Positions 460 to 12,302 of a stretch of 64,000 nucleotides of DNA are shown here, one piece after another. Position numbers and translations under genes: made by a program. The notes under the pieces were generated by a model. It was not told where the DNA came from. It made no database searches and saw nothing but the letters and a program-made list of their open reading frames with translations. The first letter of the stretch is position 1. Every line of letters starts with the position of its first letter. Origin of the DNA: Escherichia phage JLBYU40. Location: sequence record NC_105514.1, one strand, 5' to 3'.

Positions 460-620
460 CAGAATAGCAAATGAATTTTTAATAAATTTACTTATTGTGT
501 AGGCCACCTGGAGGCTACCAACCCCACGGCTGACAAAGAAGTTTGCGAGACCTCTCTTAAATGCCAGAATAGACCCGCCGGTCTATCGGAACCTACATAA
601 TAAGTAAACTTTATAGTGTC

Positions 621-740
621 ATTCTAGACAGGACTCGAACCTGTTATCACTTGTGCGGACTTACGAGAACCATTCTTTCACTCGAATCGAACGAGCTTCT
701 GCCCCCGCCAAGCTGGTTTCCCCATCAACCACGCTAGAAT
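621..740 (-). ncRNA. unresolved tRNA-like element (about 120 nt)
   Basis: Perfect 7-bp acceptor pairing ATTCTAG/CTAGAAT, D-like stem TGGT/ACCA, T-arm ACAGG-TTCGAGT-CCTGT, but about 45 extra nt in the middle and no canonical anticodon arm. Confidence 0.3.
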
Positions 741-862
741 GTTTGATTGTTTTCAGTGCAAGAGTCCGAGTCTTGGACACGACCGCTTCGCAAGTACATA
801 GGCGGCTTATCATGAGTCAGCACTTCCGAATTGCTAGCTTCGTGTTCTGCACTGAAATTTTG

Positions 863-1210
863 TTAATTTAATAGTAAAGTACGATCTACTTCACCATTAA
901 TTGTTCGGCATTCTTCTGGGATTGCTGGTGTAGTCTTATATTCCCACCATTCAGAACCATCATATTCACCACGTTCTAACCAAGTTCCATCGGTAAACCA
1001 TACGTTACCATAAAGCAATTGTCCGCCGAAACCAGAATCATATTTAAAGTCTAGATTATCTAGAAAATCTTCAATATCTTTTTCTGTATAACCTACGGGT
1101 AATACCCAAACTTCTTTATCCCCATAATAACCGAATTCTATCTTAATACACTTAACTTCAGAATTAGTATTCTTTAGGGCAAGTAACAATTCTTCTTTAG
1201 CATTAATCAT
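863..1210 (-). CDS. hypothetical protein (115 aa)
   Basis: ORF track; colinear with minus-strand early genes. Confidence 0.5.
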   Translation of the reverse strand: MINAKEELLLALKNTNSEVKCIKIEFGYYGDKEVWVLPVGYTEKDIEDFLDNLDFKYDSGFGGQLLYGNVWFTDGTWLERGEYDGSEWWEYKTTPAIPEECRTINGEVDRTLLLN

Positions 1211-1236
1211 AGCGTATTTCTCGTGCTAGTTTAGTT

Positions 1237-1313
1237 TGGCGCGACCGATGGGATTCGAACCCACATTCTCTCCCGTGACAGGGGAGTACCATTACCAAGC
1301 CAGCCCCGGTCGC
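1237..1313 (-). tRNA. tRNA-Asp (GUC)
   Basis: Acceptor GCGACCG/CGGTCGC, anticodon arm CTCCC-CTGTCAC-GGGAG, T-arm GTGGG-TTCGAAT-CCCAT, CCA encoded. Confidence 0.7.
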
Positions 1314-1322
1314 ATAATTCAT

Positions 1323-1508
1323 TTACTCAGCTTTGAGTTTTTCAATAGCTGCATTAAGTTCCTTAAGAAACTCTTTTCGTACATTAAGACGATTAAGACT
1401 TACTAGTATATCATGTTTAAGTTCTTCGATGTATTTCTTCTCAACTTCAATATTGTTGATAGTGCTATCACGATGAACTTCTAGCTGTGCAATTACGTTC
1501 TTGGACAT
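1323..1508 (-). CDS. hypothetical protein (61 aa)
   Basis: ORF track; helical, charged sequence. Confidence 0.4.
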   Translation of the reverse strand: MSKNVIAQLEVHRDSTINNIEVEKKYIEELKHDILVSLNRLNVRKEFLKELNAAIEKLKAE

Positions 1509-1610
1509 GCTTGTTTCCTCAGTTATTAATGAAAATGGTATCTGTGGCTGAATTCGATGTCAGCAATGATAGCTGGTTGGCTACCGGTTTACTTAACTCT
1601 ACACAGAATT

Positions 1611-1688
1611 TGGCGGTTCCTGCTGGATTCGAACCAGCAACCCTCAACTTAACAAGATGCCGCTCTAACCAATTAGAGCTAAGGAACC
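1611..1688 (-). tRNA. tRNA-Asn (GUU)
   Basis: Acceptor GGTTCCT/AGGAACC, D-stem GCTC/GAGC, anticodon loop TTGTTAA, T-arm GCTGG-TTCGAAT-CCAGC, CCA encoded; anticodon stem has two mismatches. Confidence 0.55.
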
Positions 1689-2183
1689 ATATAAGTCAGA
1701 ACTAGAGTTAATACGTTCTAGATATTTACTAAGATCTCTAGAATTTATACTAAACCACTCATGTTCTTTTAAATCTTTGAAATACTGGTGAATTAGTTTT
1801 TCACCTTTTCGTTTGTCAAACCAAAAAGACCAATGCTCTAACTTATAATCCCTATAAGGGGAATAAGTCTGATATTGAGCTAATCTCTCTTTTGGATTTT
1901 GACTCATACCTATTTTATACTGATTTTTCCATGCAGGATTACTAATACAGTATACAAAACCTTCAGAAATAGGAAGTTTATTTTCCTGCTTAAACTTTAT
2001 AAAGGAAAGTGCAGCAAGTTTTCTCGAATACATAGTATTTGTATTCTTTTTGGTATTACCATTGGTTCCTGAAAGATTTATATATTCTTCCATAAATCTT
2101 TGGATTAGTTCTGCGGTTATATAGAAGGGCTCATTAGTAACAATACCTTTCTTTACCAAACTATCAAAAACTCTTGTATGCAC
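1665..2183 (-). CDS. T5orf172-domain (GIY-YIG-like) protein
   Basis: 172-aa ORF; motif YKIGMSQNPKERLAQYQTYSPY resembles the T5orf172 / MUG113 domain; 3' end overlaps the tRNA-Asn gene. Confidence 0.5.
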   Translation of the reverse strand: MHTRVFDSLVKKGIVTNEPFYITAELIQRFMEEYINLSGTNGNTKKNTNTMYSRKLAALSFIKFKQENKLPISEGFVYCISNPAWKNQYKIGMSQNPKERLAQYQTYSPYRDYKLEHWSFWFDKRKGEKLIHQYFKDLKEHEWFSINSRDLSKYLERINSSSDLYGSLALIG

Positions 2184-2204
2184 TACTTCTTTCCTTTAGT
2201 AATT

Positions 2205-2280
2205 TGGACGACCGCATGAGATTTGAACTCACATAAAAAGGATTTGCAATCCTTCGCCTAAGCCATTCAGCCAACGGTCG
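2205..2280 (-). tRNA. tRNA-Cys (GCA)
   Basis: Acceptor CGACCGT/GCGGTCG, anticodon arm AAGGA-TTGCAAA-TCCTT, T-loop TTCAAAT, CCA encoded. Confidence 0.65.
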
Positions 2281-2328
2281 GTTTATCTTGTTCTGTCATG
2301 TTGCTTCTCCAGTTCAATTTATGTAATT

Positions 2329-2357
2329 ATTATACAGAACTTTTGGAAACTAAGCAA
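2329..2357 (-). promoter_or_regulatory. sigma70-type promoter (-35 TTGCTT, 17 bp, -10 TATAAT)
   Basis: Plus-strand attata 2329-2334 and aagcaa 2352-2357; conserved cassette. Confidence 0.6.
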
Positions 2358-2627
2358 CTACATTTTTAAGAATTTGATGCCTTTCTTTTTCTTCTTATAT
2401 TTCCACGTTAATGGATTCTGCCGATTGTGAACGCTTGAGATCTTCGTCTCGTCAAAGTTCTTCAATATCATGTAATCACAAGATAATTGTTCTAATGGAA
2501 TGTGATCACCGTCAAAAGCATATACATAAGGCTGTTGACTAACACGATAATGATAGACTTTGTTAATTCTACGTTTTAGCGACTTATCAGCGCAGTAAAT
2601 AAAGAAGTTTTCAGGATGCATCAGCAT
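2358..2627 (-). CDS. hypothetical protein (89 aa)
   Basis: ORF track. Confidence 0.4.
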   Translation of the reverse strand: MLMHPENFFIYCADKSLKRRINKVYHYRVSQQPYVYAFDGDHIPLEQLSCDYMILKNFDETKISSVHNRQNPLTWKYKKKKKGIKFLKM

Positions 2628-2641
2628 CTCCTTCGATTTGG

Positions 2642-2713
2642 TGCACCCTGTTCGTATCGAACGAACCTCTCAAGCTCTTCAGGCAAGCGCTAATCCATCT
2701 CAGCTAAAGGTGC
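2642..2713 (-). tRNA. probable tRNA-Phe (GAA)
   Basis: Acceptor GCACCTT/AGGGTGC, D-stem GCTG/TAGC, anticodon loop CTGAAGA, T-arm GTTCG-TTCGATA-CGAAC; anticodon stem weak (two U.U). Confidence 0.4.
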
Positions 2714-2719
2714 AAATTT

Positions 2720-2796
2720 TGGCAAACCTACTAGGACTCGAACCTAGACCGTACGGTTTTGGAGACCGACATGCTGTCCAGTAACACTCTAGGAAT
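2720..2796 (-). tRNA. possible tRNA-Trp (CCA)
   Basis: T-arm CTAGG-TTCGAGT-CCTAG with encoded CCA, anticodon loop CTCCAAA; acceptor pairing imperfect, 5' boundary uncertain. Confidence 0.35.
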
Positions 2797-2804
2797 GCAG
2801 AAAT

Positions 2805-2881
2805 TGGCGTCCTGTGCGGGGATCGAACCCGCAAATCCTACCTTGAAAGGGTAGTGACTTTACCAGTTTGTCTAACAGGAC
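2805..2881 (-). tRNA. tRNA-Glu (UUC)
   Basis: Acceptor GTCCTGT/ACAGGAC, anticodon arm CTACC-CTTTCAA-GGTAG, T-arm GCGGG-TTCGATC-CCCGC, CCA encoded. Confidence 0.7.
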
Positions 2882-2888
2882 TTAAATT

Positions 2889-2979
2889 TGGTGTTGGATG
2901 ATGGAGTCGAACCACCCGAGACCCTTCCGAGTCGGCAGATTTACAGTCTGCTTCGCTACCTCTACGATACTAATCCAAC
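2889..2979 (-). tRNA. tRNA-Tyr (GUA), long variable arm
   Basis: Acceptor GTTGGAT/ATCCAAC, anticodon arm GCAGA-CTGTAAA-TCTGC, about 18-nt variable arm, T-loop TTCGACT, CCA encoded. Confidence 0.65.
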
Positions 2980-3042
2980 ATATTTAAAAGTATTCAAATA
3001 CTAGTTTAAACACTTTTAAATATGTTTCCGAATTAGATAACT

Positions 3043-3071
3043 ATTATATCAAGTTTTAAGGCACTGAGCAA
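3043..3071 (-). promoter_or_regulatory. sigma70-type promoter driving the tRNA operon (-35 TTGCTC, -10 TATAAT)
   Basis: Plus-strand attata 3043-3048 and gagcaa 3066-3071, 17-bp spacer. Confidence 0.5.
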
Positions 3072-3107
3072 GTCAAATTTTAAAGAACTTGCTCAGTGCT
3101 GTATTAG

Positions 3108-3383
3108 TTAGTCGAACTTAGGAGTGACAGTTAAGGAGAACGGAAGTTCGAAAACTTCTTCGCCCTCATTACTAACGGTAACTACACGACCTTTAAGTTC
3201 AGACATTAAAATATCAATATCAGCTTTTGCATCTGGAGCCATGCCAGCTTCAATACATTTAGCTTTAACTTCCGGTAAAAGCTCTACGTTATAGAGATAG
3301 AGCCACTCAATCTCACCTTCCCAGTCTTCCCAGGATTTGCAGATTGCACTTTCAATACCAGTTGCTACAACACGATTTTGCAT
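3108..3383 (-). CDS. hypothetical protein (91 aa)
   Basis: ORF track. Confidence 0.45.
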   Translation of the reverse strand: MQNRVVATGIESAICKSWEDWEGEIEWLYLYNVELLPEVKAKCIEAGMAPDAKADIDILMSELKGRVVTVSNEGEEVFELPFSLTVTPKFD

Positions 3384-3413
3384 TAATTAACTCCTTCATC
3401 AATTTATATAACT

Positions 3414-3443
3414 ATTATACCAGAAATTTAAAGTAAAAGGCAA
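3414..3443 (-). promoter_or_regulatory. sigma70-type promoter (-35 TTGCCT, -10 TATAAT)
   Basis: Plus-strand attata 3414-3419 and aggcaa 3438-3443, 18-bp spacer. Confidence 0.45.
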
Positions 3444-3473
3444 GTACATTTTTAAAAATTCTGTTTGGAGGAG

Positions 3474-3680
3474 CTAAACTCCAGATTTTTCGGCCAAGTC
3501 TAGACTAATAAGAGTTATAGCCATAATTGCTGCACCGTGTTCTTTTTCTCCGGTGTTTTTAGCAGAGTCTATAATATCCTTAATCTGTTCGTAATAACTT
3601 TTTACTTCTTGTTCAATGCCTGCCTCGGCTATCATGCCTTTAGCCATGAATCGTTGCATGGTAATTTCAGGATTAGCCAT
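3474..3680 (-). CDS. hypothetical protein (68 aa)
   Basis: ORF track; start overlaps stop of upstream small ORF (ATGGCTAA). Confidence 0.4.
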   Translation of the reverse strand: MANPEITMQRFMAKGMIAEAGIEQEVKSYYEQIKDIIDSAKNTGEKEHGAAIMAITLISLDLAEKSGV

Positions 3681-3840
3681 GTTGTTTCTCCAGTTTCATT
3701 TTTAATAGTTTACAGATGAAATCAACGTCTTCATCTGTGCCTAAGTCTCTATCCTCAAGGGTCGCCTTGAAGTTTTTCGTCAATTCCATGAGGATGACTT
3801 CCCTAGAACGACGTGTTGGCGGAGGTGGATGTCTATACAT
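3673..3840 (-). CDS. hypothetical small protein (about 55 aa)
   Basis: Hand-read ORF (MYRHPPPPTRRS...) with SD AAGGAAA upstream of ATG at 3840; stop overlaps next start. Confidence 0.35.
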   Translation of the reverse strand: MYRHPPPPTRRSREVILMELTKNFKATLEDRDLGTDEDVDFICKLLKMKLEKQHG

Positions 3841-3855
3841 CTTATTTCCTTAATT

Positions 3856-3932
3856 TGGTAGGGGTGGTGGGATTCGAACCCACAAAACCTGAATTTTAAG
3901 TCCAGTACCTATGCCAATTCGATTACACCCCC
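3856..3932 (-). tRNA. tRNA with UAA anticodon but short variable arm (identity uncertain)
   Basis: Acceptor GGGGGTG/CACCCCT, anticodon arm CTGGA-CTTAAAA-TTCAG, T-arm GTGGG-TTCGAAT-CCCAC, CCA encoded; D-arm poorly paired. Confidence 0.45.
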
Positions 3933-3939
3933 GTGTAAT

Positions 3940-4128
3940 TTAGTCAATTACTTTTGAAGCTTCAAGGTAGTCGATATAGTGTACGTTTTCTACCGTAATC
4001 ATATAATCTGCCACTTTATCCATAGCTTGGGCTTCAGAGGTAGCTCTGGCTAACCTATATCCTTTTTTATATTCATCAGAGTATTCTCTATCTTGAATAA
4101 ACACAACATAAACTACGTATAATTCCAC
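3940..4128 (-). CDS. hypothetical protein (about 62 aa; GTG start inferred)
   Basis: The 111-aa ORF in the track runs into tRNA genes; AGGGGG then GTG at about 4128 gives a tRNA-free CDS. Confidence 0.3.
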   Translation of the reverse strand: MELYVVYVVFIQDREYSDEYKKGYRLARATSEAQAMDKVADYMITVENVHYIDYLEASKVID

Positions 4129-4150
4129 TTGTAACCCCCTAATTAAGTTG

Positions 4151-4225
4151 GTGGCTCCCCGAGGATTCGAACCTACGTACCTTCCGGTTATGAGCCGGGT
4201 GCTCATACCATATGAGCTTGAGAAC
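4151..4225 (-). tRNA. tRNA with CAU anticodon (Met or Ile2)
   Basis: Acceptor GGTTCTC/GGGAGCC, D-stem GCTC/GAGC, anticodon arm CCCGG-CTCATAA-CCGGA, T-loop TTCGAAT; no encoded CCA. Confidence 0.5.
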
Positions 4226-4231
4226 CAAAAT

Positions 4232-4320
4232 CTGGCGGAAGAAGTGGGAATCGAACCCACAAGGCTATATTTCAAACCGACAGATTAGCAATCTGCTGCA
4301 ATACCGTTATGCTATTCTTC
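4232..4320 (-). tRNA. tRNA-Ser (GCU), long variable arm
   Basis: Acceptor GGAAGAA/TTCTTCC, anticodon arm GCAGA-TTGCTAA-TCTGT, long variable arm, T-arm GTGGG-TTCGATT-CCCAC, CCA encoded. Confidence 0.65.
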
Positions 4321-4342
4321 CGAATTTATAAGATATATTATA

Positions 4343-4864
4343 TTAGAAATTTAGCTTCATAGCAAGAAAATTTTTCAAGTTTTCGGTAGACATCTCATCT
4401 ACATCTACAGGAGAAACAAAGCCGTTTAATTTTCTAGCAAATTTTTCACCATCGGGATCATTGTCTCCAACAGCTACCAATTTAAAAGGTAGTAATTTCA
4501 GTTGCTTTAATAACGCTTTTCCTGGAGAAGAACCCAACATTGCTAGGGCTGGATAACCAGCGTTATGTAACGCAACTGCCTTAAATACAGATTCAGCAAT
4601 CAATACTACTTTTTCATCTCCATTGAGAGTTTCTAGTCCCCATACACACTGGGTAGTAGAATAAGTAAAGTATTTAGCTTCAAAGGGGCACTTACCATGA
4701 CCTTTTGGAGCAGAAGGATTATAAGTTTGATAGCCCCTCAACATCCCAGAGAAGTCATACAACGGGACTGTTAGCCATCCTTCTGGACTTAACCAGCAAT
4801 GATATTTATCTGTATCAAATCCCCTAGATAAGAGGTGCTGTGTTAGCTCATCAACATTCATATT
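4343..4864 (-). CDS. Toprim-like domain protein (hypothetical)
   Basis: Motifs IAESVFK and LVAVGDNDPDGEKFARKL resemble a Toprim acidic patch; start moved to MNVDEL. Confidence 0.4.
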   Translation of the reverse strand, partial: NMNVDELTQHLLSRGFDTDKYHCWLSPEGWLTVPLYDFSGMLRGYQTYNPSAPKGHGKCPFEAKYFTYSTTQCVWGLETLNGDEKVVLIAESVFKAVALHNAGYPALAMLGSSPGKALLKQLKLLPFKLVAVGDNDPDGEKFARKLNGFVSPVDVDEMSTENLKNFLAMKLNF

Positions 4865-4891
4865 TGGTTCCTCTCTCAAATTTATAGATAT

Positions 4892-4920
4892 ATTATACAG
4901 AGAATTTAGCATTCAAGCAA
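4892..4920 (-). promoter_or_regulatory. sigma70-type promoter (-35 TTGCTT, 17 bp, -10 TATAAT)
   Basis: Plus-strand attata 4892-4897, aagcaa 4915-4920. Confidence 0.6.
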
Positions 4921-5036
4921 TCAAATTTTTTAACTTTTTAGAGGAAAATCATAGGGCGCTTAAGGGTAACAGATAAGTGGTGAGGACCAAAATTTGTGAC
5001 CCCACTAAAAATCCGGGGGCAATTTTTAAAGACCCC

Positions 5037-5065
5037 TTGACATTTTCGCTGGGGTAGTGTAAAGT
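5037..5065 (+). promoter_or_regulatory. sigma70-type promoter (-35 TTGACA, about 17 bp, -10 TAAAGT)
   Basis: ttgaca at 5037-5042; TAAAGT/TATAT-like -10 about 17 bp downstream; followed by SD AGGAGG. Confidence 0.5.
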
Positions 5066-5127
5066 ATATGTTATGGATGAGTGATCAAAGAGACACACAT
5101 TTTCTATATACTAGGAGGTGTCAAAAA

Positions 5128-6114
5128 ATGACAGAAGAAGTAGCTAAGAGTCCTGAGACCGTCGCTAGCGTTGCAGCAGAACTGCACCGTCACGAGGAAT
5201 CAGATAAGAAAAAGTGGGAGAAGGTCAGAGCCTACGAAGAAAAACATCGTGAACACGATGATGAAGAAGATGACGATGATGAACATTGTCATAAATATGG
5301 AAAACATAAAATGCAAGAACCAGTAAACGTATTCACTAGTGGCTTCCCTGGCCTACTGGGTGGTTACCCAGCAAACGCAGGTGCTTTCGGTGGTGAAGGT
5401 ATGGGACTATTCGGAGCTATCCTAATCGGTGCTCTATTAACAGGTGGATTCGGTGGTTTCGGTGGATTCGGTGGACGTGGTGTAGTTGGTGAAGGTACCG
5501 CAGTTGATGCAGTACTTCAGAACCAAGATACCGCTAGTATTCTAGCAGCTATTAACACTACTCGTACAGAAGCTAATCAGGGTACTGGGGCTGTGTTAAG
5601 CGCAGTTAACAATGGTTTTAGCCAGACATCCCAAAACCAGAGCCGTGATACTCAGTCTGTACTAACTACGATTTATGGTACAGGTGCTAATCTGTCTAAT
5701 CAGATCTGCCAGGAAACTCGCAACGTTATTCAGGGTCAGTTCGATCTTTCTCGCCAGATTGATCAATCTTTCGCAGCTAACCAGATAGCTCGTGCACAAG
5801 ATAAATTTGATTCTGCACAGATCGCTTTCCAGCAGACTTTACAAACTAATAACCAGTTTGCCGCTGTTCAGGCTCAGATGTGTGCTAACCAGAACTCTCT
5901 GGAACGTCAGATCGCTGAATGTTGCTGTGAACTTCAGACTGCGATCGCTGGTGTAACTACTGCGCGTATCCAGGATGAGTTAGATGCATGTCGCCTACGT
6001 GAGGCAATCGCTGCGGGTAATGGTGCTAACGATCAGGTAATTAATCAAATCGCTGTAAGTCTTGGTGCAATCACTCAGACTCTGGCTGGTCTGCAGGCTA
6101 AACTGCCGGCTTAA
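5128..6114 (+). CDS. hypothetical protein: acidic/His-rich N-terminus, Gly-zipper hydrophobic segment, long Gln/Asn/Ala-rich helical region
   Basis: ATG 5128 after AGGAGG; GFGGFGGFGG and GAILIGALLTGG; codons biased to highly expressed E. coli-like usage. Confidence 0.6.
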   Translation: MTEEVAKSPETVASVAAELHRHEESDKKKWEKVRAYEEKHREHDDEEDDDDEHCHKYGKHKMQEPVNVFTSGFPGLLGGYPANAGAFGGEGMGLFGAILIGALLTGGFGGFGGFGGRGVVGEGTAVDAVLQNQDTASILAAINTTRTEANQGTGAVLSAVNNGFSQTSQNQSRDTQSVLTTIYGTGANLSNQICQETRNVIQGQFDLSRQIDQSFAANQIARAQDKFDSAQIAFQQTLQTNNQFAAVQAQMCANQNSLERQIAECCCELQTAIAGVTTARIQDELDACRLREAIAAGNGANDQVINQIAVSLGAITQTLAGLQAKLPA

Positions 6115-6135
6115 TATTAAGGGGAGGAGCCCATT

Positions 6136-6552
6136 ATGAGTAAATATGGTTTTGTAAATAACGGACTTAATCAAAGTATGGGCTCCCAGCAGCCCATTCC
6201 GGGTCTGGATAACCCCTACTTACAACAATTGCAACAGCGTTTAGCAGAAGCGCAACAGATGCAGCAACAACTCCAGCAAAACCCTGGAAGTGTGAGTCCT
6301 ATGCAAATGATGCAGCAAATGAGCGGGCAGTCGCAAATGCCTCAACAAATGCAGCAACAGGTGCCTCAGCAGCAAGTTCAGCAACAAACCCAACAACCGC
6401 AGGTTTCTGCGGAAGGACAGGCAGTACTAGCCCTTTTCGAAGACTTCGCAAAGACAGAGGATGGGAAACAGCTTGTATCACTTATGGGTAAGTTTAATAG
6501 CTTCTGCCAAAGCCAGGTTGCAAAAGCTCAAAATAGTGGTAATAACTCCTAA
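6136..6552 (+). CDS. hypothetical Gln-rich protein (138 aa)
   Basis: ORF with SD GGGGAGGAG upstream; about 35% Gln in the central region. Confidence 0.5.
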   Translation: MSKYGFVNNGLNQSMGSQQPIPGLDNPYLQQLQQRLAEAQQMQQQLQQNPGSVSPMQMMQQMSGQSQMPQQMQQQVPQQQVQQQTQQPQVSAEGQAVLALFEDFAKTEDGKQLVSLMGKFNSFCQSQVAKAQNSGNNS

Positions 6553-6561
6553 GGAGGAATT

Positions 6562-6756
6562 ATGTGTTGCAGAAAATCTGTTTCGTGCTGCCCAATGCCT
6601 GTAGCACGTTGTTGCTCTCCAGCAATGTTTACGCAAATACCGGCGTTCAATCCGTTTGCCTTTAAGCCTACTCTTATCCTGCCCCCTAGAGTAGATTTTC
6701 AGTCAAGATTGGCCTCCCGTATGGGTAGTTGCTGTAACAAGAGTATATGGTTCTAA
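6562..6756 (+). CDS. hypothetical Cys-rich small protein (64 aa, four CC doublets)
   Basis: Strong SD AAGGAGGA 5 nt before ATG; 8 Cys arranged as CC pairs. Confidence 0.4.
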   Translation: MCCRKSVSCCPMPVARCCSPAMFTQIPAFNPFAFKPTLILPPRVDFQSRLASRMGSCCNKSIWF

Positions 6757-6772
6757 GGAACCAAACAATAAA

Positions 6773-6806
6773 GCCCCTAGTCGAAAGACTTAGGGGCTTT
6801 TCTTTT
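6773..6806 (+). terminator. rho-independent terminator
   Basis: GCCCCTA/TAGGGGC stem followed by TTTTCTTTT. Confidence 0.6.
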
Positions 6807-6816
6807 ATCTTAAATA

Positions 6817-6851
6817 CAGAAAAGCCCTGCGCTCTCTAGGAAACGCAGGGC
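6817..6851 (-). terminator. rho-independent terminator for the convergent minus-strand gene
   Basis: GCCCTGCG/CGCAGGGC 8-bp stem; U-tract on minus strand (plus-strand agaaaa). Confidence 0.55.
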
Positions 6852-6876
6852 TTATTTCAGATGTTACATGCGGGTA

Positions 6877-7824
6877 TTATTTATTACGCATATCCATAAT
6901 CATTTGGCCATCATAGCCAGTGCCAACCACAGTCTGCGGTACACCACCTTGGTATTTCTGAGCACGAATCATTTCAACTTCCAGTTGCTTCCAGCGAATC
7001 ATCTCAGGAGTAATGGTACGTTGCAATGCGGCGTTAGCTTCAGCTTCTTTCTTAGCTGCATATAGTTTAGCATCTGCGTCACGTTCATTGGCAATAGCTT
7101 GGTTGTTGCGAGCTTCACGGTCTGCTTCTGCTTGTTTAACTTTTTGCTGTGCTTCCTGTTCAACGCGAGCCAGTTCAGCTTTCGCAGCATTAACTTGCTC
7201 TTCACGAACTTTGGTATTCTGTACCTGTTCCATGATTACCGGTGGCAAAGTAATATCCTGAAGGAATACCTGCTTAACTGTATAACCATATGGGCGTGCA
7301 TACTCTTCAACTTCCTGTTGAATTGCAGTTTGCAATTGAGCCTGAATTTTAGCATCAAACAAATCTTGTGCTTTAGGTACAGACTTACCAAACTCACGAA
7401 TAGTAGACAGTAATTTTTCAGTTACATACTTGTCTAGTGCCTGATCCTGAGTACCTGCGTTAATACGGTTAATTGGTGCCTTAGAACCATCAAACTGCAA
7501 CATAACAGTCAGGTCAACAGTGGATTTAAACTTATCCTGGCTAGGAACCTGAAGTTTATCTAATTTTACAGCAATATCTTTTGTACTAAAAGTGTCGAAA
7601 GATGCAAATGGGTTTACAAGATGGAAACCTGGTAATACTGGGTTAGGATCTACTTTACCCAGAAATGTTTGGGTTTTAACCGTACCATCAGAAACAATAG
7701 TATATGAATTAAAAGCTAGGATTAAACCTGCTAAACCAACTACAGCACCAATACCCCAACGTTTAATAGTACGAATTACTTTCTGCTCAGAAGTCAGTTC
7801 TTTCATATTTTTAGTATTAAACAT
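6877..7824 (-). CDS. SPFH / band-7 (prohibitin/HflK-like) membrane protein
   Basis: N-terminal TM helix (GIGAVVGLAGLILAF), then SPFH-like core and Ala/Glu/Gln-rich coiled coil. Confidence 0.6.
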   Translation of the reverse strand: MFNTKNMKELTSEQKVIRTIKRWGIGAVVGLAGLILAFNSYTIVSDGTVKTQTFLGKVDPNPVLPGFHLVNPFASFDTFSTKDIAVKLDKLQVPSQDKFKSTVDLTVMLQFDGSKAPINRINAGTQDQALDKYVTEKLLSTIREFGKSVPKAQDLFDAKIQAQLQTAIQQEVEEYARPYGYTVKQVFLQDITLPPVIMEQVQNTKVREEQVNAAKAELARVEQEAQQKVKQAEADREARNNQAIANERDADAKLYAAKKEAEANAALQRTITPEMIRWKQLEVEMIRAQKYQGGVPQTVVGTGYDGQMIMDMRNK

Positions 7825-7858
7825 ATATTTCCTTTGTTTTAGTTACAGTTAATAAAAT

Positions 7859-7933
7859 TGGCCGAGGTGACAGGATTCGAACCTGCATAAAGGAATTTAG
7901 AAGACTCCTGCCTCTCCCTTAGACTACACCCCG
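7859..7933 (-). tRNA. tRNA-Arg (UCU)
   Basis: Acceptor CGGGGTG/CACCTCG, anticodon arm GGAGT-CTTCTAA-ATTCC, T-arm GCAGG-TTCGAAT-CCTGT, CCA encoded. Confidence 0.65.
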
Positions 7934-8433
7934 TTTAAGTATTTTTAAGAACTCTCGTAAAAACTCTTAAAAATACAGACGATACCGGGAGAGTCATAGG
8001 TCTCACTCATTAAGTATTTCAAGACAAAATACAGTAACGTCTATTATTTTCCAGTTTAAGTCAGGGTGACTTAGTGGTTATGTCCTGCGGTATATTGAGG
8101 ACTCGGTTAGGCTTGGGGTCATGACTTCCCGCCTTTTGCTGCTACTCAACAGGAGTTATCGCGAATTACCTGTGCTATTGTGCACCATTAGTGACATCTC
8201 TCATGCCAGCATTTCCCACTTTGTGGATAGCTTGAAAAACTACTCCGATATGGAGAAAGAACTTCACTATCCTAGAATACCTTCTAAAGTTCTTCTTTAG
8301 CCTGGACATAGTTAAATCGTAATAAAACTATTCAGCAGACCGGTTGGTTAGTCTGGAACCAACTACCGCGTGGTTTAGGCAGTGCGCAACTAACCTCGGA
8401 AGCTTTTACGTTAAAAGCATCAGTTATCCAGTT

Positions 8434-8508
8434 CTTACCGACCGTAGGATTCGAACCTACATCTTCCACCAGTTACGGCTTGATAATACCAATTATACTA
8501 GGACGGCA
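8434..8508 (-). ncRNA. unresolved tRNA-like element
   Basis: T-arm GTAGG-TTCGAAT-CCTAC and partial acceptor pairing, but no canonical anticodon arm found. Confidence 0.25.
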
Positions 8509-8730
8509 GTGTTACTACATAAGTGATTTCCACACCCCACTATTTATAAATTAGAGAAGAGTTTAGGGAAGAGGTTTCAGACGCCTCATTTTACACGTTC
8601 TAGCCACTAACCGGGATTGCCGCCCCCTGTGTACTAGTTTTACAACTAACCCACCGACTCTATTCAATGCACTCCGGTTGGGATTCTGCACTCAGCGTAA
8701 TCGGCTCGCTGTTCCCTAATTTATGAATAT

Positions 8731-8759
8731 ATTATACAGAATTTATAAGCATTTAGCAA
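8731..8759 (-). promoter_or_regulatory. sigma70-type promoter (-35 TTGCTA, 17 bp, -10 TATAAT)
   Basis: Plus-strand attata 8731-8736, tagcaa 8754-8759; points into the 800-nt non-coding stretch. Confidence 0.6.
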
Positions 8760-8767
8760 ATGAATTT

Positions 8768-9202
8768 TTAGAAAAATTCACTAGCGATCAAAGCAGTTGT
8801 TTTACCGTCATAACGTCCAGGAAATTCTGCCTTAATAGTTTTCATTAATAGAGCTTTGGTAATACCTGGGTTTAATTTAACCAGTTCTGCAAAATACTCA
8901 CGAATTTCAGTTTCAGTCAGTTGACTTGGCTGATACTCTTGCAGCATGGAATAAAGCAGTTGCTCATAGTCTACATCAGTAGGAACTTTCGTACCAACTT
9001 TAATAGCGCGCTGCTTTGCATTTTCTAGAGCCTTAATCTGAGCTTTCAGATAGGCTACAAACTCGGTTCGAGTAACAATGTCTTTATCAATACGTTGCAG
9101 GTCGCCAATCATGGTCTGAAGATTAAGTGCCCGCTCTTTATCACCGTGAGTACGTGCTAGACTAAGCAGTCCACGAAGGGTCATTAGGATATTTTCACCC
9201 AT
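8768..9202 (-). CDS. hypothetical protein (144 aa)
   Basis: ORF track; start overlaps stop of upstream small ORF. Confidence 0.5.
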   Translation of the reverse strand: MGENILMTLRGLLSLARTHGDKERALNLQTMIGDLQRIDKDIVTRTEFVAYLKAQIKALENAKQRAIKVGTKVPTDVDYEQLLYSMLQEYQPSQLTETEIREYFAELVKLNPGITKALLMKTIKAEFPGRYDGKTTALIASEFF

Positions 9203-9370
9203 TATTTCATCCCCAATGCTTGGTTAAAAGATTGTTCTGTCATAACTGCTGAGACTTTGGCGAAATCAAACTTTTTAGGGTTCGTAGTGATTTCAGCAAC
9301 GTTAGAAGTTTTAACAGTTTTCGTAGTACGAATACCGCGAGTGTTAACACCAATAATTACAACTGATTTC
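9202..9370 (-). CDS. hypothetical small protein (about 56 aa)
   Basis: Hand-read ORF MKSVVIIGVNTRGIRTT... with SD GAGGAAG; stop overlaps next ATG. Confidence 0.35.
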
Positions 9371-9403
9371 ATATTTCGCTTCCTCTCATTAATTTATGAA
9401 AGT

Positions 9404-9432
9404 ATTATACAGAAATTTAAGTATTTAAGCAA
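9404..9432 (-). promoter_or_regulatory. sigma70-type promoter (-35 TTGCTT, 17 bp, -10 TATAAT)
   Basis: Plus-strand attata 9404-9409, aagcaa 9427-9432. Confidence 0.6.
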
Positions 9433-9440
9433 GTAAATTT

Positions 9441-9908
9441 TTAAGTTTTAGTGACAACAGGTTTATAAAACGTATGTCCCTTAATCTTAGTTGTTTTCTT
9501 AAACTTCTTTGTCCAGTAAGGTTTATCTTTACCACTATGGAAGTATAGTGCTCCATGTGTAGGATCTTGTGGTAAATCAACGTAGTATATCACTCTAGCT
9601 AAATTCTTAGCGGTTTGCCAAGCCTCATCAGTTTTATCAACTTTTGGTCTCTTAGATACCCAAGAGAACTGGTTAGACTGATATACTACTTTACAGTAGG
9701 AATCTGGGAATTTACCGGAGTTTACACGGTTTTTAGTAACATGTGCAATCGCCGTCATTCCCTTTATGCCCTCACCACGACTTTCGAAATAGATATTTTT
9801 AGCAATGCAATCTATTTCTTTTGCATCGTGCGATGCCTGACTACTAAAGCTGAAGGTAAGGGCAGCTACTAAAAGCAAAGCTGCCTTCATTCTTTTTACT
9901 ACTGCCAA
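9441..9908 (-). CDS. secreted cell-wall hydrolase, SleB-like (Hydrolase_2 family)
   Basis: N-terminal signal peptide (MKAALLLVAALTFSFSSQA); motifs resembling SleB-type cell wall hydrolases. Confidence 0.5.
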   Translation of the reverse strand: MAVVKRMKAALLLVAALTFSFSSQASHDAKEIDCIAKNIYFESRGEGIKGMTAIAHVTKNRVNSGKFPDSYCKVVYQSNQFSWVSKRPKVDKTDEAWQTAKNLARVIYYVDLPQDPTHGALYFHSGKDKPYWTKKFKKTTKIKGHTFYKPVVTKT

Positions 9909-10213
9909 TCATATTCAACACGATTGGGATTTTCTTTATACCCTAAGTCAAGCAAATCATTACGCATATTTTGCTTAGCTACTGGGTTCGAGGTTACTAG
10001 TACCACTTTCTTTGGTCTCTGCCCAAATTCTAAGAGTAAACGAAGAATTTGATAACCTTCCATACCATCTACAGCCAAGTCATTATCCATATAAACGAAA
10101 TGGCCTGTGGTATCAGTTTTATTCAGAAACTCTACAGCGGCTTCTGGGGTTCGAATGATAATGTCCATTCCGTGAAGATTGCGCACGTCATCAATCAAAA
10201 TATGAAAAGTCAT
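9899..10213 (-). CDS. stand-alone CheY-like receiver-domain protein (putative)
   Basis: ILIDD near N-terminus, central YMDNDLAVDGMEG, VVLVTSN, later Lys: pattern of response-regulator receiver domains. Confidence 0.4.
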   Translation of the reverse strand: MTFHILIDDVRNLHGMDIIIRTPEAAVEFLNKTDTTGHFVYMDNDLAVDGMEGYQILRLLLEFGQRPKKVVLVTSNPVAKQNMRNDLLDLGYKENPNRVEYDWQ

Positions 10214-10243
10214 AATAGCCTCGTTTCATCAATTTAAAAATAT

Positions 10244-10272
10244 ATTATACACATAATTTAGTAAATTAGCAA
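10244..10272 (-). promoter_or_regulatory. sigma70-type promoter (-35 TTGCTA, 17 bp, -10 TATAAT)
   Basis: Plus-strand attata 10244-10249, tagcaa 10267-10272. Confidence 0.6.
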
Positions 10273-10655
10273 ATACATTTTTAAATTGTGAAACTAGTAA
10301 ACCGATAAACAGCCTAGAGGCGCCACAGGCCATATCTTATGAGCCATGTACCTTTGATCTAGGGTTTGAATCATCAATGAATACTTTGCATCTTTTAGCT
10401 TTAGAAGTTTAGAAGTTTGAGTTCTTTAAACTTTTCAGCTTTCATACTTAAATGTTGATCTTTGAAGTTGTGTCGGTAATATCAACGACGCTTTGTTTTT
10501 ACGTGTCAGATTAAATGTCTGATGTAATAAACATAATCTCCAATAGATTATACTTTATAGTATGGTCAGCGGTCTTATTTAACCTCGTATTTCAACCGCT
10601 GCTGCGAGGTAAGATGCTTGGGCTTTCGTCTACCGATTTACTAGCTTTTAAATTA

Positions 10656-11294
10656 TTACTCTACTTCAATGAAGGTAGAGGCGTTAGACTCGGACAGAAC
10701 AAAGTCAACATTTGTTGCAAAGTCCTGATATTCCTCGTCATGCTGTTTAATCAGCTTTTCCAGTTCCAGCGGATCAATCAAGAATGGGGTATTCTTGAGT
10801 TCCAGCAGGTTGAGCTGCATTTTAACTTCATCTTCGGAAGTTTTCTTATCGCGGGTAGCCATGCTATCCTGCAAACGCTCATATTTAGCATCAAACTGTG
10901 CTTTCTGCGTATTAAACTTAACCGTAGCGGCATGGAACTGCTTACGCATGTTAGCCAGCAGTTGGGCTTTAAGTTCCATAGAACGCTTAGCTTCAATTGC
11001 TTCCGCAACGGTCATCTTACGAGAGCCAATCTCAACGATTGTTTCAGCATTGCTTTTAATCAGAGCAGCTTTGATACGATCACGCTGGGACATCATATCC
11101 AGGAGAGATTGGAAATCTGCCTTAATACGAGCAGACAGATCGTCTACTTCGATTGCAGCGCCAACTACAACCTTATTTTTATCCTTACCTTCACCAACAG
11201 CGATCAGAAGCTGCTGTTCAGTAGCTTTACGGATTTTAGCTTCCAGAGATTTGATAGTTGCCAGAGCGCGGGTTTTAGAAATACGAGTAGTCAT
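10656..11294 (-). CDS. hypothetical protein (212 aa, helical)
   Basis: ORF track; the two long plus-strand ORFs over it are antisense artefacts. Confidence 0.55.
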   Translation of the reverse strand: MTTRISKTRALATIKSLEAKIRKATEQQLLIAVGEGKDKNKVVVGAAIEVDDLSARIKADFQSLLDMMSQRDRIKAALIKSNAETIVEIGSRKMTVAEAIEAKRSMELKAQLLANMRKQFHAATVKFNTQKAQFDAKYERLQDSMATRDKKTSEDEVKMQLNLLELKNTPFLIDPLELEKLIKQHDEEYQDFATNVDFVLSESNASTFIEVE

Positions 11295-11346
11295 TATTTG
11301 CTTCCTTATATGAAGTTTGAGATTTGAATTTGTTTAAAGTTGGTCT

Positions 11347-11464
11347 ATTACAGACCAATTGCCAGCAGAGTGCGCAGAACAGTATCGTTACTGTTATCAA
11401 TTTTAGGATTAGCACGATTTAGCAGATCAAAGATTTTCTGGACACCTGATTGACGTTCAGCCAT
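11347..11464 (-). CDS. possible small basic protein (frame open upstream without ATG)
   Basis: Frame ...NGKKATRNLGIRRMAERQSGVQKIFDLLNRANPKID... with optimal-looking codons; only in-frame ATG gives 38 aa. Confidence 0.2.
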
Positions 11465-11570
11465 ACGACGGATACCCAGATTACGAGTAGCTTTCTTACC
11501 ATTTTTACGAACATTTTTAGATACTGGCGTATTTGTTTTCCTTTTATTGTTTTCTCAAATTTATGAATAT

Positions 11571-11599
11571 ATTATACAGAATTTTGGGGCCGGAAGCAA
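11571..11599 (-). promoter_or_regulatory. sigma70-type promoter (-35 TTGCTT, 17 bp, -10 TATAAT)
   Basis: Plus-strand attata 11571-11576, aagcaa 11594-11599; cassette nearly identical to 8719-8745. Confidence 0.6.
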
Positions 11600-11600
11600 A

Positions 11601-12302
11601 TCAAATTTTCATTTTTTCGATCATAGCTGCAACACAATAGCTTTCAACTAAGGCATCAAATGCAGGATCATGCTTAACCGGATAGATCCCATAACGAATA
11701 GTGTCCATCTTCTCCATTTTAGCTATTGCCCAGCTAATAGCTTCGGTCTCTAGAGCCTTATAACTGTATCCAGCTTGCATCCAGAGATTACGAAGAGATC
11801 GAACATTACCCAAATTCCAGAATTTCCACGGAACTACCTCTTCATTGGTTCCAGCATGGAACGTGTTTGCAGAGTAGATAGTCATATCAAATTCTGGGCC
11901 ATTGCCATAATACAAAGCATTTTCGCCTAGAGCCAACTCCATAATATTTTGAGCCATAGAGAAGGCAGCATAGTTAGAGCCGAGCTTATTAGTACAGTGA
12001 TGTTTACCATTTTGGAAGGCAATCAGTTTTGGATTACGTTCCTTCATAGCTTCCATTATGTGAATAGCAGAGGGGCTATTTTTAGCTTGATCCATCCAGA
12101 ATGCTAGAGTAGATGCTGTAACTTTGGCACCAGAATTAAGCTGATCCTGCACATCCAAAGTAACAAATACTAAGTCAGGGTCTTTGTCAATCCCATGCAT
12201 AGCCACAAAAGCGAAAGAAGGCATTGCGATATGAGTAGTACCACAATCTCCTGGAGTTCCTAGAGATTCAATATCTAGCATACCAAATGGTTTTACTTTC
12301 AT
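11601..12302 (-). CDS. putative exonuclease (DEDD-like motif)
   Basis: N-terminal LDIESLGT resembles Exo I motif of DnaQ-like 3'-5' exonucleases; otherwise unassigned. Confidence 0.4.
   Translation of the reverse strand: MKVKPFGMLDIESLGTPGDCGTTHIAMPSFAFVAMHGIDKDPDLVFVTLDVQDQLNSGAKVTASTLAFWMDQAKNSPSAIHIMEAMKERNPKLIAFQNGKHHCTNKLGSNYAAFSMAQNIMELALGENALYYGNGPEFDMTIYSANTFHAGTNEEVVPWKFWNLGNVRSLRNLWMQAGYSYKALETEAISWAIAKMEKMDTIRYGIYPVKHDPAFDALVESYCVAAMIEKMKI

What the first reader, a model, noticed from the sequence alone, without database searches (positions are those of the whole stretch)
6877..7824. Phage-encoded SPFH / band-7 membrane scaffold protein
SPFH proteins organise membrane microdomains and regulate membrane proteases in bacteria. 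A phage copy with an N-terminal TM anchor and coiled-coil tail, sitting beside the unusual plus-strand module, may modulate host membrane protein turnover or act in superinfection exclusion.
Basis: partly seen in the sequence, partly recalled or inferred. Interest (0 to 1): 0.4.

Follow-up and report, generated by a model that had tools for sequence, protein, structure and literature searches.

The report
Phage T5 SPFH membrane-scaffold gene (T5.080)
This is a real phage gene for a membrane-anchored SPFH/band-7 scaffold protein, the already catalogued T5.080 of coliphage T5; it is dispensable in the laboratory yet kept by nearly all T5 relatives, and nobody knows what it does.

Summary
Confirmed, but not new. 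The ORF at 6877..7824 (minus strand, 315 aa) is the ortholog of phage T5 gene T5.080 (99.4% aa identity). It is a full-length SPFH/Band-7 protein: Pfam Band_7 scores 64 bits against a cut-off of 23.6. The AlphaFold model (pLDDT 79) shows an N-terminal TM helix, an alpha/beta SPFH domain and a ~95-residue helical stalk, followed by a conserved but low-confidence C-terminal tail. All 50 top PDB fold hits are SPFH cage proteins (erlin, prohibitin, HflK/C, stomatin, QmcA, flotillin, vault). The common "lipoprotein" label is wrong, because the protein has no cysteine. It has no NfeD partner and no second SPFH paralog, and it is not coupled to the neighbouring plus-strand module. It is dispensable in the lab: "Not Fit" in the T5 CRISPRi-ART screen, removed by the viable T5 st0 deletion, and internally deleted in natural phage NG_S8. 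Yet about 99% of close T5-likes keep it under strong purifying selection (dN/dS 0.01–0.11). Homologs occur in T4-like, N4-like and T7-like phages. It sits next to the anti-retron gene Rad, in T5's deletable tRNA-rich / anti-defence region. It most likely forms a homo-oligomeric inner-membrane cage, probably facing the periplasm, that gives a conditional benefit. The client and role are unknown. The FtsH and superinfection-exclusion ideas remain untested.

The parts
6877..7824 (-). CDS of the SPFH/Band-7 protein (315 aa plus stop); ortholog of T5.080
   Evidence: ORF listing. Pfam Band_7 64.2 bits. 99.4% aa identity to the T5 NC_005859 locus T5.080.
7696..7758 (-). Codons for the N-terminal signal-anchor TM helix (about residues 23-43), preceded by a K/R-rich cytoplasmic stub (residues 1-22: 6 K/R, 2 D/E)
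   Evidence: Kyte-Doolittle maximum 1.79 at residues 25-43. AF2 helix 12-38. Flank charges favour N-in.
7249..7704 (-). Codons for the alpha/beta SPFH domain (residues ~41-192)
   Evidence: AF2 strands and helices 41-192, block pLDDT 77-89. The Pfam match covers residues 52-225. Foldseek matches to SPFH domains.
6955..7242 (-). Codons for the helical stalk (CC1 helix 195-270, CC2 helix 273-290)
   Evidence: AF2 secondary structure. A/E/K/Q/R-rich composition. Aligns to the CC regions of QmcA and prohibitin.
6880..6954 (-). Codons for the conserved C-terminal tail (residues 291-315; Y291, G293, P296, T298, G301, D311 and R313 nearly invariant); candidate cap-forming segment
   Evidence: Conservation in alignment A1. 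Low monomer pLDDT with short strands. The cap role is an inference from solved SPFH cages.
7830..7834 (-). Shine-Dalgarno sequence AAGGA, 5 nt before the ATG
   Evidence: Upstream sequence read directly.
6822..6853 (-). Rho-independent terminator ending the transcription unit; its 3' arm carries the T5 major-nick motif GA|GCGC (nick predicted at 6833|6832)
   Evidence: Terminator scan. T5 annotation of the nick at 39746/39747, and of the nearby separate bidirectional terminator. Motif mapped.
7859..7933 (-). tRNA-Arg(TCT) 34 nt upstream of the CDS, probably on the same transcript
   Evidence: ARAGORN. Rfam tRNA 49.3 bits. T5 annotation.
8731..8759 (-). Sigma-70-type promoter (TTGCTA-17-TATAAT), at the position T5 annotates as early promoter P16-17; the likely promoter for RNAX, tRNA-Arg and SPFH
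   Evidence: Promoter scan, 10 of 12 matches. T5 annotation. Co-transcription is inferred; no consensus promoter lies between the tRNA and the CDS.

Best explanation
The ORF is the T5.080 ortholog of a T5-like phage (Tequintavirus) and a genuine full-length SPFH/Band-7 protein. Shown here: it has a short K/R-rich N-terminus, one signal-anchor TM helix, an alpha/beta SPFH domain, a ~95-residue two-helix stalk and a conserved C-terminal tail. It is a single gene with no NfeD or paralog partner. It lies in the early region as the last gene of a unit that runs promoter P16-17, RNAX, tRNA-Arg, SPFH, terminator. It is dispensable for lytic growth on laboratory E. coli, but almost all close T5-likes keep it under strong purifying selection. 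Inferred: like every structurally solved SPFH protein, it homo-oligomerises into a ring or dome anchored in the inner membrane of the infected cell and encloses a patch of membrane with client proteins (p about 0.75). Its SPFH dome probably faces the periplasm, with N-in topology as in HflK/C (p about 0.7). Its biological role is a conditional one that does not matter on defence-poor lab strains. It probably keeps the infected cell's inner membrane functional until programmed lysis by caging a host inner-membrane client. My ranking of clients and roles: the FtsH-type membrane protease, i.e. an HflK/C-like action (about 0.2); a membrane-acting abortive-infection or defence effector, i.e. counter-defence, suggested by its place in T5's deletable tRNA-rich / anti-defence region (about 0.2); holin or lysis timing (about 0.15); exclusion of superinfecting phage DNA entry (about 0.1); something else (the remainder).
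For: Family and fold: Pfam Band_7 E=2e-17. The AF2 model has pLDDT 79 with a TM helix, SPFH domain and long helices. Foldseek against the PDB returns only SPFH cage proteins in the top 50, most aligned over ~260-318 columns: erlin1/2 1.9e-14, PHB1/2, HflK/C, stomatin, QmcA, flotillin, vault. PDB sequence hits are QmcA 1.8e-6 and prohibitin-2 8.6e-5. Single gene: no NfeD and no second SPFH copy in the window, and no NfeD in the neighbours in three other phage lineages. Topology: the N-flank has 4 K/R against 2 in the C-flank, and the N-flank is richer in 21 of 27 family members; cytoplasm-facing QmcA and YqiK have zero K/R N-terminal to their TM. Dispensable: T5 CRISPRi-ART gives T5.080 7 guides, p=0.85, 'Not Fit' (PMC11879866 supplement). 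The T5 st0 deletion removes window ~1340-9197. NG_S8 has an internal deletion of window ~7000-7805. Retained and constrained: SPFH at >=80% identity in 437 records against DNA polymerase at >=80% in 443; dN/dS 0.009, 0.071 and ~0.11. Neighbourhood: Rad, the anti-retron protein T5.076, lies 2 kb away, and the ~8 kb region was described as an anti-defence island / tRNA-rich region. In three T4-like lineages the order is tk, rI antiholin, DUF5856, SPFH.
Against: No oligomer was modelled or observed. The C-terminal tail has low confidence in the monomer model. The positive-inside count is only moderately discriminating: HflK and QmcA come out ambiguous on net charge. There is no hit to any PADLOC defence model and no NCBIfam hit. 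No paper found tests any phage SPFH protein. Guilt by association is weak: the T5 region is also simply the phage's main deletable region, and the tk-rI region of T4-likes is a known plastic region. I could not confirm that the fragments tested by Azam et al. include this gene. Sequence similarity to HflK/C is marginal (HflC 19.6 bits, HflK none).
Confidence: 0.8

Rival explanations
1. HflK/C mimic. The phage cage surrounds or replaces the host HflK/C around FtsH and changes the degradation of membrane or regulatory substrates.
For: Two of the four E. coli SPFH proteins are tied to FtsH-linked quality control; this is established knowledge (HflK/C-FtsH structures 7vhq, 7wi3, 9cz2 appear among the fold hits). 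The predicted N-in/periplasm-facing topology matches HflK/C rather than QmcA or YqiK. HflC is one of only two host paralogs detected by the family profile.
Against: HflK/C is an obligate heteromer of two paralogs, whereas the phage has one gene. Similarity to HflC is marginal (19.6 bits) and there is none to HflK. No benefit of FtsH control to a strictly lytic phage has been shown. Knockdown has no fitness effect in the lab.
Confidence: 0.2
2. Counter-defence factor. The cage sequesters or neutralises a membrane-acting abortive-infection or defence effector, so it matters only on hosts that carry that system.
For: Lab-dispensable but near-universally retained and strongly constrained, which is the typical profile of anti-defence genes. 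It lies in the st0-deletable region, 2 kb from the anti-retron gene Rad and next to tRNAs that cancel the retron-Eco7 defence. Deleting the region in T5n also lowered EOP on AVAST 2, and that effect is still unassigned to a gene.
Against: Purely associative. The same region is simply the non-essential part of the genome. The AVAST 2 effector is not known to be membrane-bound. In T4-like, T7-like and N4-like phages the gene sits in other contexts. I could not verify that the gene lies within the fragments those authors tested.
Confidence: 0.2
3. Lysis-timing or membrane-integrity factor acting on the holin/antiholin pathway.
For: In three T4-like lineages (SPFH 55-78% identical to this one) the gene directly follows the rI antiholin and DUF5856 genes. 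In an Aeromonas T4-like, a 'lysis inhibition' gene lies 3 kb away. In this window a signal-peptide-bearing cell-wall hydrolase (T5.083 homolog) lies 1.6 kb upstream.
Against: tk-rI is backbone synteny in T4-type genomes (own knowledge), so the adjacency may only mark a permissive insertion site. There is no such neighbour in the T5, T7-like or N4-like contexts. No lysis phenotype has been reported for T5 st0.
Confidence: 0.15
4. Superinfection exclusion. The cage blocks inner-membrane passage of DNA from later-arriving phages.
For: It is an early-expressed inner-membrane protein, as are T4 Imm and Sp (own knowledge). It is dispensable in single-phage lab infections.
Against: No evidence in the sequence or context. 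T5 already has Llp for receptor blocking (own knowledge). Known Sie proteins are small and unrelated to SPFH.
Confidence: 0.1
5. Lipoprotein, as labelled by PHROG 200 and many RefSeq records.
For: The annotation label only. One distant family member (P0115, Morganella phage) has an I-G-S-C motif at the end of its hydrophobic helix.
Against: The protein contains no cysteine at all, and 24 of 27 family members have none, so lipidation at a lipobox Cys is impossible.
Confidence: 0.01

Closest known systems
T5.080 of Escherichia phage T5 (YP_006908.1) and its orthologs across Markadamsvirinae
   Same: 99.4% aa identity (100% to phages EC100 and SA001). Same position between tRNA-Arg and the nick/terminator, convergent with T5.077-079.
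   Different: Nothing of substance; this is the same gene in a close relative. DNA identity is about 98% to phage slur09.
E. coli HflK/HflC (FtsH-regulating SPFH cage)
   Same: N-terminal TM helix, SPFH domain, CC helices and C-terminal tail. Full-length fold match (7vhq, 7wi3, 9cz2). Predicted N-in/periplasm-facing orientation.
   Different: A single gene rather than a heteromeric pair. About 18% identity. The profile scores HflC at only 19.6 bits and does not detect HflK. FtsH binding is untested.
E. coli QmcA-YbbJ (SPFH-NfeD complex, PDB 8z5g)
   Same: Best sequence match in the PDB (E=1.8e-6) and similar length (305 vs 315 aa). Presumably a homo-oligomer.
   Different: No NfeD partner in the window or in other phage contexts. 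QmcA has no K/R before its TM and faces the cytoplasm, whereas the phage protein has a K/R-rich N-terminus.
Eukaryotic prohibitin and erlin cages
   Same: Top structural matches (erlin1/2 1.9e-14, PHB1/2 4e-13). Some phage orthologs are named 'prohibitin family' or 'PHB domain' protein.
   Different: 14-19% identity. Those are organellar heteromeric complexes with different clients.
Other virus-encoded SPFH proteins (Vibrio, Rhizobium and Streptomyces phages; Marseillevirus, Tupanvirus, Pandoravirus, Mimiviridae)
   Same: Same full-length architecture by fold search in BFVD (31 hits at E<=1e-3). All are uncharacterised.
   Different: Only 13-22% identity to most of them. The T5-type clade is a distinct family that, in every context I checked, is phage-borne: T5-like, T4-like and N4-like phages, plus a T7-like prophage.

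Membership tests
SPFH / Band-7 superfamily (Pfam PF01145) | Match to the Band_7 profile above Pfam's gathering score | tested here: met
   64.2 bits against a cut-off of 23.6, E=2e-17, residues 52-225 covering profile positions 13-176 of 176.
SPFH / Band-7 superfamily | Alpha/beta SPFH fold | tested here: met
   AF2 model, pLDDT 79, with block pLDDT 77-89 over residues 41-192. All top-50 Foldseek PDB hits are SPFH proteins, probability 1.00.
SPFH / Band-7 superfamily | N-terminal membrane anchor | tested here: met
   A single hydrophobic stretch at residues 23-43, KD mean 1.79. AF2 helix 12-38. Conserved in all 27 aligned members.
SPFH / Band-7 superfamily | Long coiled-coil helices (CC1/CC2) after the SPFH domain | tested here: met
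   Helices 195-270 and 273-290. They align to the CC regions of QmcA and prohibitin.
SPFH / Band-7 superfamily | Assembly into a large ring or cage closed by the C-terminal segments | not testable with these tools
   Only single-chain prediction is available. The C-terminal tail is conserved but has pLDDT <50 in the monomer, which is compatible with an inter-subunit element but is not proof.
HflK/HflC-type FtsH regulator | Two paralogous SPFH genes forming a heteromer | tested here: not met
   The only tblastn hit of the protein against the 64-kb window is itself. It is a single gene in all phage contexts examined.
HflK/HflC-type FtsH regulator | N-in topology with a periplasmic SPFH dome | tested here: inconclusive
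   N-flank 4 K/R against C-flank 2, and the N-flank is richer in 21 of 27 members. The same count is ambiguous for HflK itself.
HflK/HflC-type FtsH regulator | Physical association with FtsH | not testable with these tools
   Needs pull-down or cryo-EM.
SPFH-NfeD operon (QmcA-YbbJ / stomatin-STOPP type) | Adjacent NfeD-family partner gene | tested here: not met
   tblastn of YbbJ against the window gives nothing below E=4.9. Pfam scans of the flanking genes in T4-like, N4-like and T7-like contexts find no NfeD. The neighbours in T5 are a tRNA and a terminator.
Bacterial lipoprotein (PHROG 200 / RefSeq label) | Lipobox with an invariant Cys at the signal-peptidase II site | tested here: not met
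   Zero Cys in the protein and in 24 of 27 family members.
Known anti-phage defence proteins (PADLOC-DB) | Match to a defence-system protein model | tested here: not met
   No hit at E<=0.01.
Phage anti-defence genes | Demonstrated neutralisation of a defence system | not tested
   Only the location supports this: it lies within the st0-deletable region near Rad and the tRNAs. No published test of this gene was found.

The most novel reading that the evidence does not exclude
The T5-type phage SPFH protein is a new kind of counter-defence or lysis-control device. It would be a phage-built periplasm-facing membrane cage that physically encloses a host inner-membrane effector (a membrane-disrupting abortive-infection protein, FtsH or a holin), keeping the infected cell energised until the phage is ready. 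That would explain why the gene is useless on lab strains yet almost never lost in nature, and why unrelated phages and giant viruses carry SPFH genes.
Probability: 0.15. Interest if true: 0.7.

Novelty: already known. Interest (0 to 1): 0.25.

Why it matters
As a finding, this re-identifies a catalogued gene, so it changes nothing on its own. The residual value is twofold. First, the widespread 'lipoprotein' label (PHROG 200, RefSeq) is demonstrably wrong and should read 'SPFH domain membrane protein'. Second, virus-encoded SPFH proteins are common in T5-, T4-, N4- and T7-type phages and in giant viruses, and none has an assigned function. T5 offers an unusually tractable entry point: a ready-made viable deletion strain (st0), a genome-wide knockdown data set, and a gene that is lab-dispensable but strongly constrained, which points to a host-dependent role that could be screened on defence-system and wild-strain panels.

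Tried and rejected
1. Lipoprotein annotation: rejected, because the protein has no Cys.
2. NfeD partner: searched for in the window by tblastn and in the neighbours of three other lineages by Pfam; none found.
3. Functional coupling with the plus-strand module T5.077-079: rejected. T5.077 is in 221 records against about 437, it is absent from SPFH-bearing T4-likes, and the two were deleted independently in NG_S8.
4. Defence-system models (PADLOC) and NCBIfam: no hits.
5. Recent capture from the host: rejected. Only QmcA (about 31 bits) and HflC (about 20 bits) are detectable among the four E. coli paralogs.
6. A cellular origin for the one 'bacterial' member (Bacterioplanoides WP_419810795): it sits in an integrated T7-like prophage.
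7. Literature searches for any functional study of a phage SPFH protein or of T5.080: none found. One 2026 paper says the reason such genes are in phage genomes is unclear.
8. The exact boundaries of the T5n/SP15m deletion and of the nine tested fragments relative to this gene are not given in the text of either version of the paper. I used the T5 st0 record instead.
10. Rfam finds no known family for the RNAX region apart from a tRNA-like element.

Full report
OBSERVATION. The window contains an ORF at exactly 6877..7824 on the minus strand: ATG start, 315 codons plus stop. An AAGGA Shine-Dalgarno sequence lies 5 nt before the ATG. A strong rho-independent terminator (13-bp stem, T-run) at 6853..6822(-) follows the stop. 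The window is a T5-like phage genome (Tequintavirus). The 4-kb region around the ORF is 98% identical to Escherichia phage slur09 and matches 457 phage records. The protein is 99.4% identical to T5.080 of phage T5 and 100% identical to proteins of phages EC100 and SA001.

FAMILY AND FOLD. Pfam Band_7 (PF01145) matches residues 52-225 with 64.2 bits against a gathering score of 23.6, E=2e-17. PHROG 200 matches end to end, E=1.7e-86. I built an alignment of 27 diverse homologs (A1, 56-88% identity to the query, 61% mean column identity). The AlphaFold2 model built from it has mean pLDDT 79. It shows helix 12-38 (TM), an alpha/beta domain at 41-192, a 76-residue helix at 195-270, a second helix at 273-290, and a low-confidence C-terminal tail with short strands. 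Foldseek against the PDB returns only SPFH-family cage proteins in the top 50: erlin1/2 (1.9e-14), prohibitin 1/2, HflK/C with FtsH, stomatin, QmcA-YbbJ, flotillin and major vault protein. Most of these alignments span 260-318 columns, so the match covers the whole architecture and not just the core domain. Sequence searches of the PDB give QmcA (1.8e-6) and prohibitin-2 (8.6e-5), and HflC only with the family profile (3e-3).

WHAT IT IS NOT. Many RefSeq records and PHROG 200 call this protein a 'lipoprotein'. The protein has no cysteine, and 24 of the 27 aligned family members have none either, so it cannot be lipid-modified at a lipobox. It has no NfeD-type partner. tblastn of E. coli YbbJ finds nothing in the window. 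Pfam scans of flanking genes in T4-like, N4-like and T7-like contexts find none. There is no second SPFH paralog in the window, so it is not an HflK/HflC-type pair. No PADLOC or NCBIfam model is hit. It is not a recent host capture: of the four E. coli K-12 SPFH proteins (HflK, HflC, QmcA, YqiK) only QmcA (about 31 bits) and HflC (about 20 bits) are detectable.

TOPOLOGY (inference). The 22 residues before the TM helix hold 6 K/R and 2 D/E. In 15-residue flanks the N-side has 4 K/R and the C-side has 2, and the N-side is richer in 21 of 27 family members. E. coli QmcA and YqiK face the cytoplasm (established: Chiba, Ito and Akiyama 2006), and they have no K/R N-terminal to their TM. HflK and HflC, which face the periplasm, do have them. 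The positive-inside rule therefore predicts N-in with a periplasm-facing dome, as in HflK/C. The count is ambiguous for HflK itself, so I put this at about 0.7.

GENOMIC CONTEXT. In T5 the gene is the last in a unit annotated as early promoter P16-17, RNAX (a stable RNA of unknown function), tRNA-Arg and T5.080. This is followed by the major 32.6% single-strand nick and a bidirectional terminator, and is convergent with T5.077-079 transcribed from promoter P12. The window has the same elements: a promoter-like site at 8759..8731(-), tRNA-Arg(TCT) at 7859-7933(-), the terminator at 6853..6822(-), and the nick motif GA|GCGC at 6833|6832(-). The ORF at 4343..4912(-), two kilobases away, is the ortholog of T5.076/ORF75. 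The preprint named this protein Rad (retron anti-defence), and the CRISPRi-ART paper annotates it as an anti-retron protein. The surrounding ~8 kb was described as an 'anti-defence island' and later a 'tRNA-rich region'. Its loss lowers plating on retron-Eco2 and retron-Eco7, and for T5n also on AVAST 2.

DISPENSABLE IN THE LABORATORY. Three independent lines support this. (i) In the transcriptome-wide CRISPRi-ART screen of T5, T5.080 was targeted by 7 guides, had mean fitness -4.28 with p=0.85, and was classed 'Not Fit', as were T5.077-079 (PMC11879866 supplement). (ii) The genome of the viable laboratory mutant T5 st0 (AY692264, 113,238 bp) carries an annotated recombination site. Mapping the window onto it shows that window ~1340-9197 is absent, which includes the whole SPFH gene, RNAX, tRNA-Arg, the plus-strand module and Rad. 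(iii) The natural Epseptimavirus NG_S8 retains only the last 42 codons: window ~7000-7805 is missing while both flanks are present. The plus-strand module (window ~4972-6724) was removed there by a separate, clean deletion.

YET KEPT IN NATURE. tblastn finds the protein at >=80% identity in 437 phage records. The DNA polymerase of the same window is found at >=80% identity in 443. Roughly 99% of close T5 relatives therefore carry it; this is approximate because the two record sets were not matched one to one. Nei-Gojobori dN/dS is 0.009 against T5, 0.071 against Salmonella phage Stitch, and about 0.11 between more distant pairs. A gene that is useless on lab strains but strongly constrained and almost never lost fits a host- or environment-dependent function.

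DISTRIBUTION. Homologs at 74-78% identity occur in T4-like phages of Klebsiella, Enterobacter and Cronobacter. There are ~60% homologs in Aeromonas T4-likes and ~35% homologs in an Aeromonas jumbo phage and N4-like Vibrio phages. An exhaustive profile search finds 346 clusters at E<=1e-10. The only member assigned to a bacterial chromosome (Bacterioplanoides) lies in an integrated T7-like prophage, between Thy1 and a 5'-3' exonuclease, with T7-type primase-helicase, DNA polymerase A, connector, capsid and tube genes around it. In three T4-like lineages the order is thymidine kinase, rI antiholin (PF24205), DUF5856, SPFH. A fold search of viral proteins shows that SPFH proteins are widespread and routinely annotated in other phages and in giant viruses. 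SPFH domains in T4-like phages RB43, 44RR and Aeh1 were already tabulated in 2006 (PMC1524935), and the T5 record itself notes the similarity to those ORFs.

THE PLUS-STRAND MODULE. T5.077 (phrog_8119), T5.078 (phrog_7894) and T5.079 have no Pfam domain. T5.077 is present in only 221 phage records, nearly all T5-likes (a few Klebsiella records and a partial match in three Pseudomonas phage records are the exceptions). It is not among the annotated neighbours of SPFH in the T4-likes examined, and it was lost independently of SPFH in NG_S8. There is no evidence that it works with the SPFH protein.

MECHANISM. Shown: family, architecture, single-gene status, context, dispensability, retention and constraint. 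Inferred from what is established for every solved SPFH assembly (HflK/C, QmcA, prohibitin, erlin, stomatin, flotillin): the protein homo-oligomerises into a membrane-anchored ring or dome that encloses a membrane patch and its client proteins. The stalk helices form the wall and the conserved C-terminal tail forms the cap. Here the dome is probably on the periplasmic face. The client is unknown. I rank the candidates as follows: an FtsH-type protease (precedent from HflK/C; about 0.2), a membrane-acting defence or abortive-infection effector (location and evolutionary profile; about 0.2), holin or lysis timing (rI adjacency in T4-likes; about 0.15), and superinfection exclusion (about 0.1). 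None of these was tested, and none can be tested with sequence tools. No functional study of any phage SPFH protein was found, and a 2026 paper states that the reason for its presence in phage genomes is unclear.

VERDICT. The gene is already known and annotated as T5.080, 'SPFH domain / Band 7 family protein', in several records. The added value here is the correction of the 'lipoprotein' label, the evidence against an NfeD or HflK/C-pair arrangement, the predicted orientation, and the contrast between lab dispensability and strong natural retention. Interest is low to moderate: a specialist would not be surprised, but the function of viral SPFH cages is an open and now easily testable question.

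Noticed in passing
window 6822-6853 (-), nick motif at 6829-6833: The rho-independent terminator directly after the SPFH stop carries, in its 3' arm, the conserved motif GA|GCGC. In the T5 reference this marks the major single-strand interruption (nick) at 39746/39747, the '32.6% nick'. The nick site and the terminator hairpin therefore overlap.
   Followed up: partly
window ~7934-8730 (-): The ~0.8-kb ORF-poor stretch between promoter P16-17 and tRNA-Arg corresponds to T5 'RNAX', a stable RNA of unknown function. Rfam finds only a tRNA-like element at 8436-8507(-), 35.5 bits, which ARAGORN does not call. Other records label it tRNA-OTHER.
   Followed up: partly
window 4343-4912 (-): A Toprim-domain protein (PHROG 'DNA primase') is the ortholog of T5.076 / SP15 ORF75, which counters retron defence (named Rad in the 2023 preprint). 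It was 'Semi-Fit' in the T5 CRISPRi-ART screen.
   Followed up: partly
window 5068/5128-6114 (+), 6136-6552 (+), 6562-6756 (+): The convergent plus-strand module (T5.077-079) encodes low-complexity proteins with no Pfam domain. One has an acidic/His-rich N-terminus, a Gly-rich hydrophobic stretch, a Q/N-rich body and a CCC motif. One is a Q-rich 138-aa protein. One is a Cys-rich 64-aa peptide. All were 'Not Fit' in the CRISPRi-ART screen. T5.077 is present in only 221 phage records, and the module is cleanly excised in phage NG_S8.
   Followed up: partly
window 9441-9908 (-) and 9899-10213 (-): There is a SleB-type cell-wall hydrolase (Pfam Hydrolase_2, 2.4e-25; T5.083 ortholog) with what looks like an N-terminal signal peptide. 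The adjacent gene has a cREC_REC 'cyclic-phosphate processing receiver' domain (3.7e-15; T5.084 ortholog). Both are 'Not Fit' in the T5 screen, and neither is T5's main endolysin.
   Followed up: no
window 8768-9202 (-): A YqeY/GatB-like protein (PHROG 'tRNA amidotransferase'; T5.081 ortholog; Pfam YqeY below its cut-off). The right-hand end of the T5 st0 deletion falls inside this gene.
   Followed up: no
L003 2774-4439; L013 2739-4400; L016 1260-2914: In three T4-like lineages the SPFH gene directly follows an rI antiholin homolog (PF24205) and a DUF5856 gene, downstream of thymidine kinase. This gene order is conserved even though the three SPFH proteins are only 55-78% identical to the one in this window.
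   Followed up: partly
L015 (Bacterioplanoides sp. 4.0-Mb contig, 694210-711127): A T7-like prophage or integrated element carries an SPFH homolog between Thy1 and a 5'-3' exonuclease, with T7-type primase-helicase, DNA polymerase A, ribonucleotide reductase, connector, capsid and tube genes around it. An integrated T7-type phage is unusual in itself.
   Followed up: no
L007 (T5 st0, AY692264) against window 1-12000: The st0 deletion maps to window ~1340-9197. Besides SPFH it removes Rad, at least eight tRNA genes (by comparison with the slur09 annotation of the same stretch), RNAX and the plus-strand module. Phenotypes of st0, such as reduced plating on retron or AVAST 2 hosts, therefore cannot be assigned to a gene without complementation.
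   Followed up: yes
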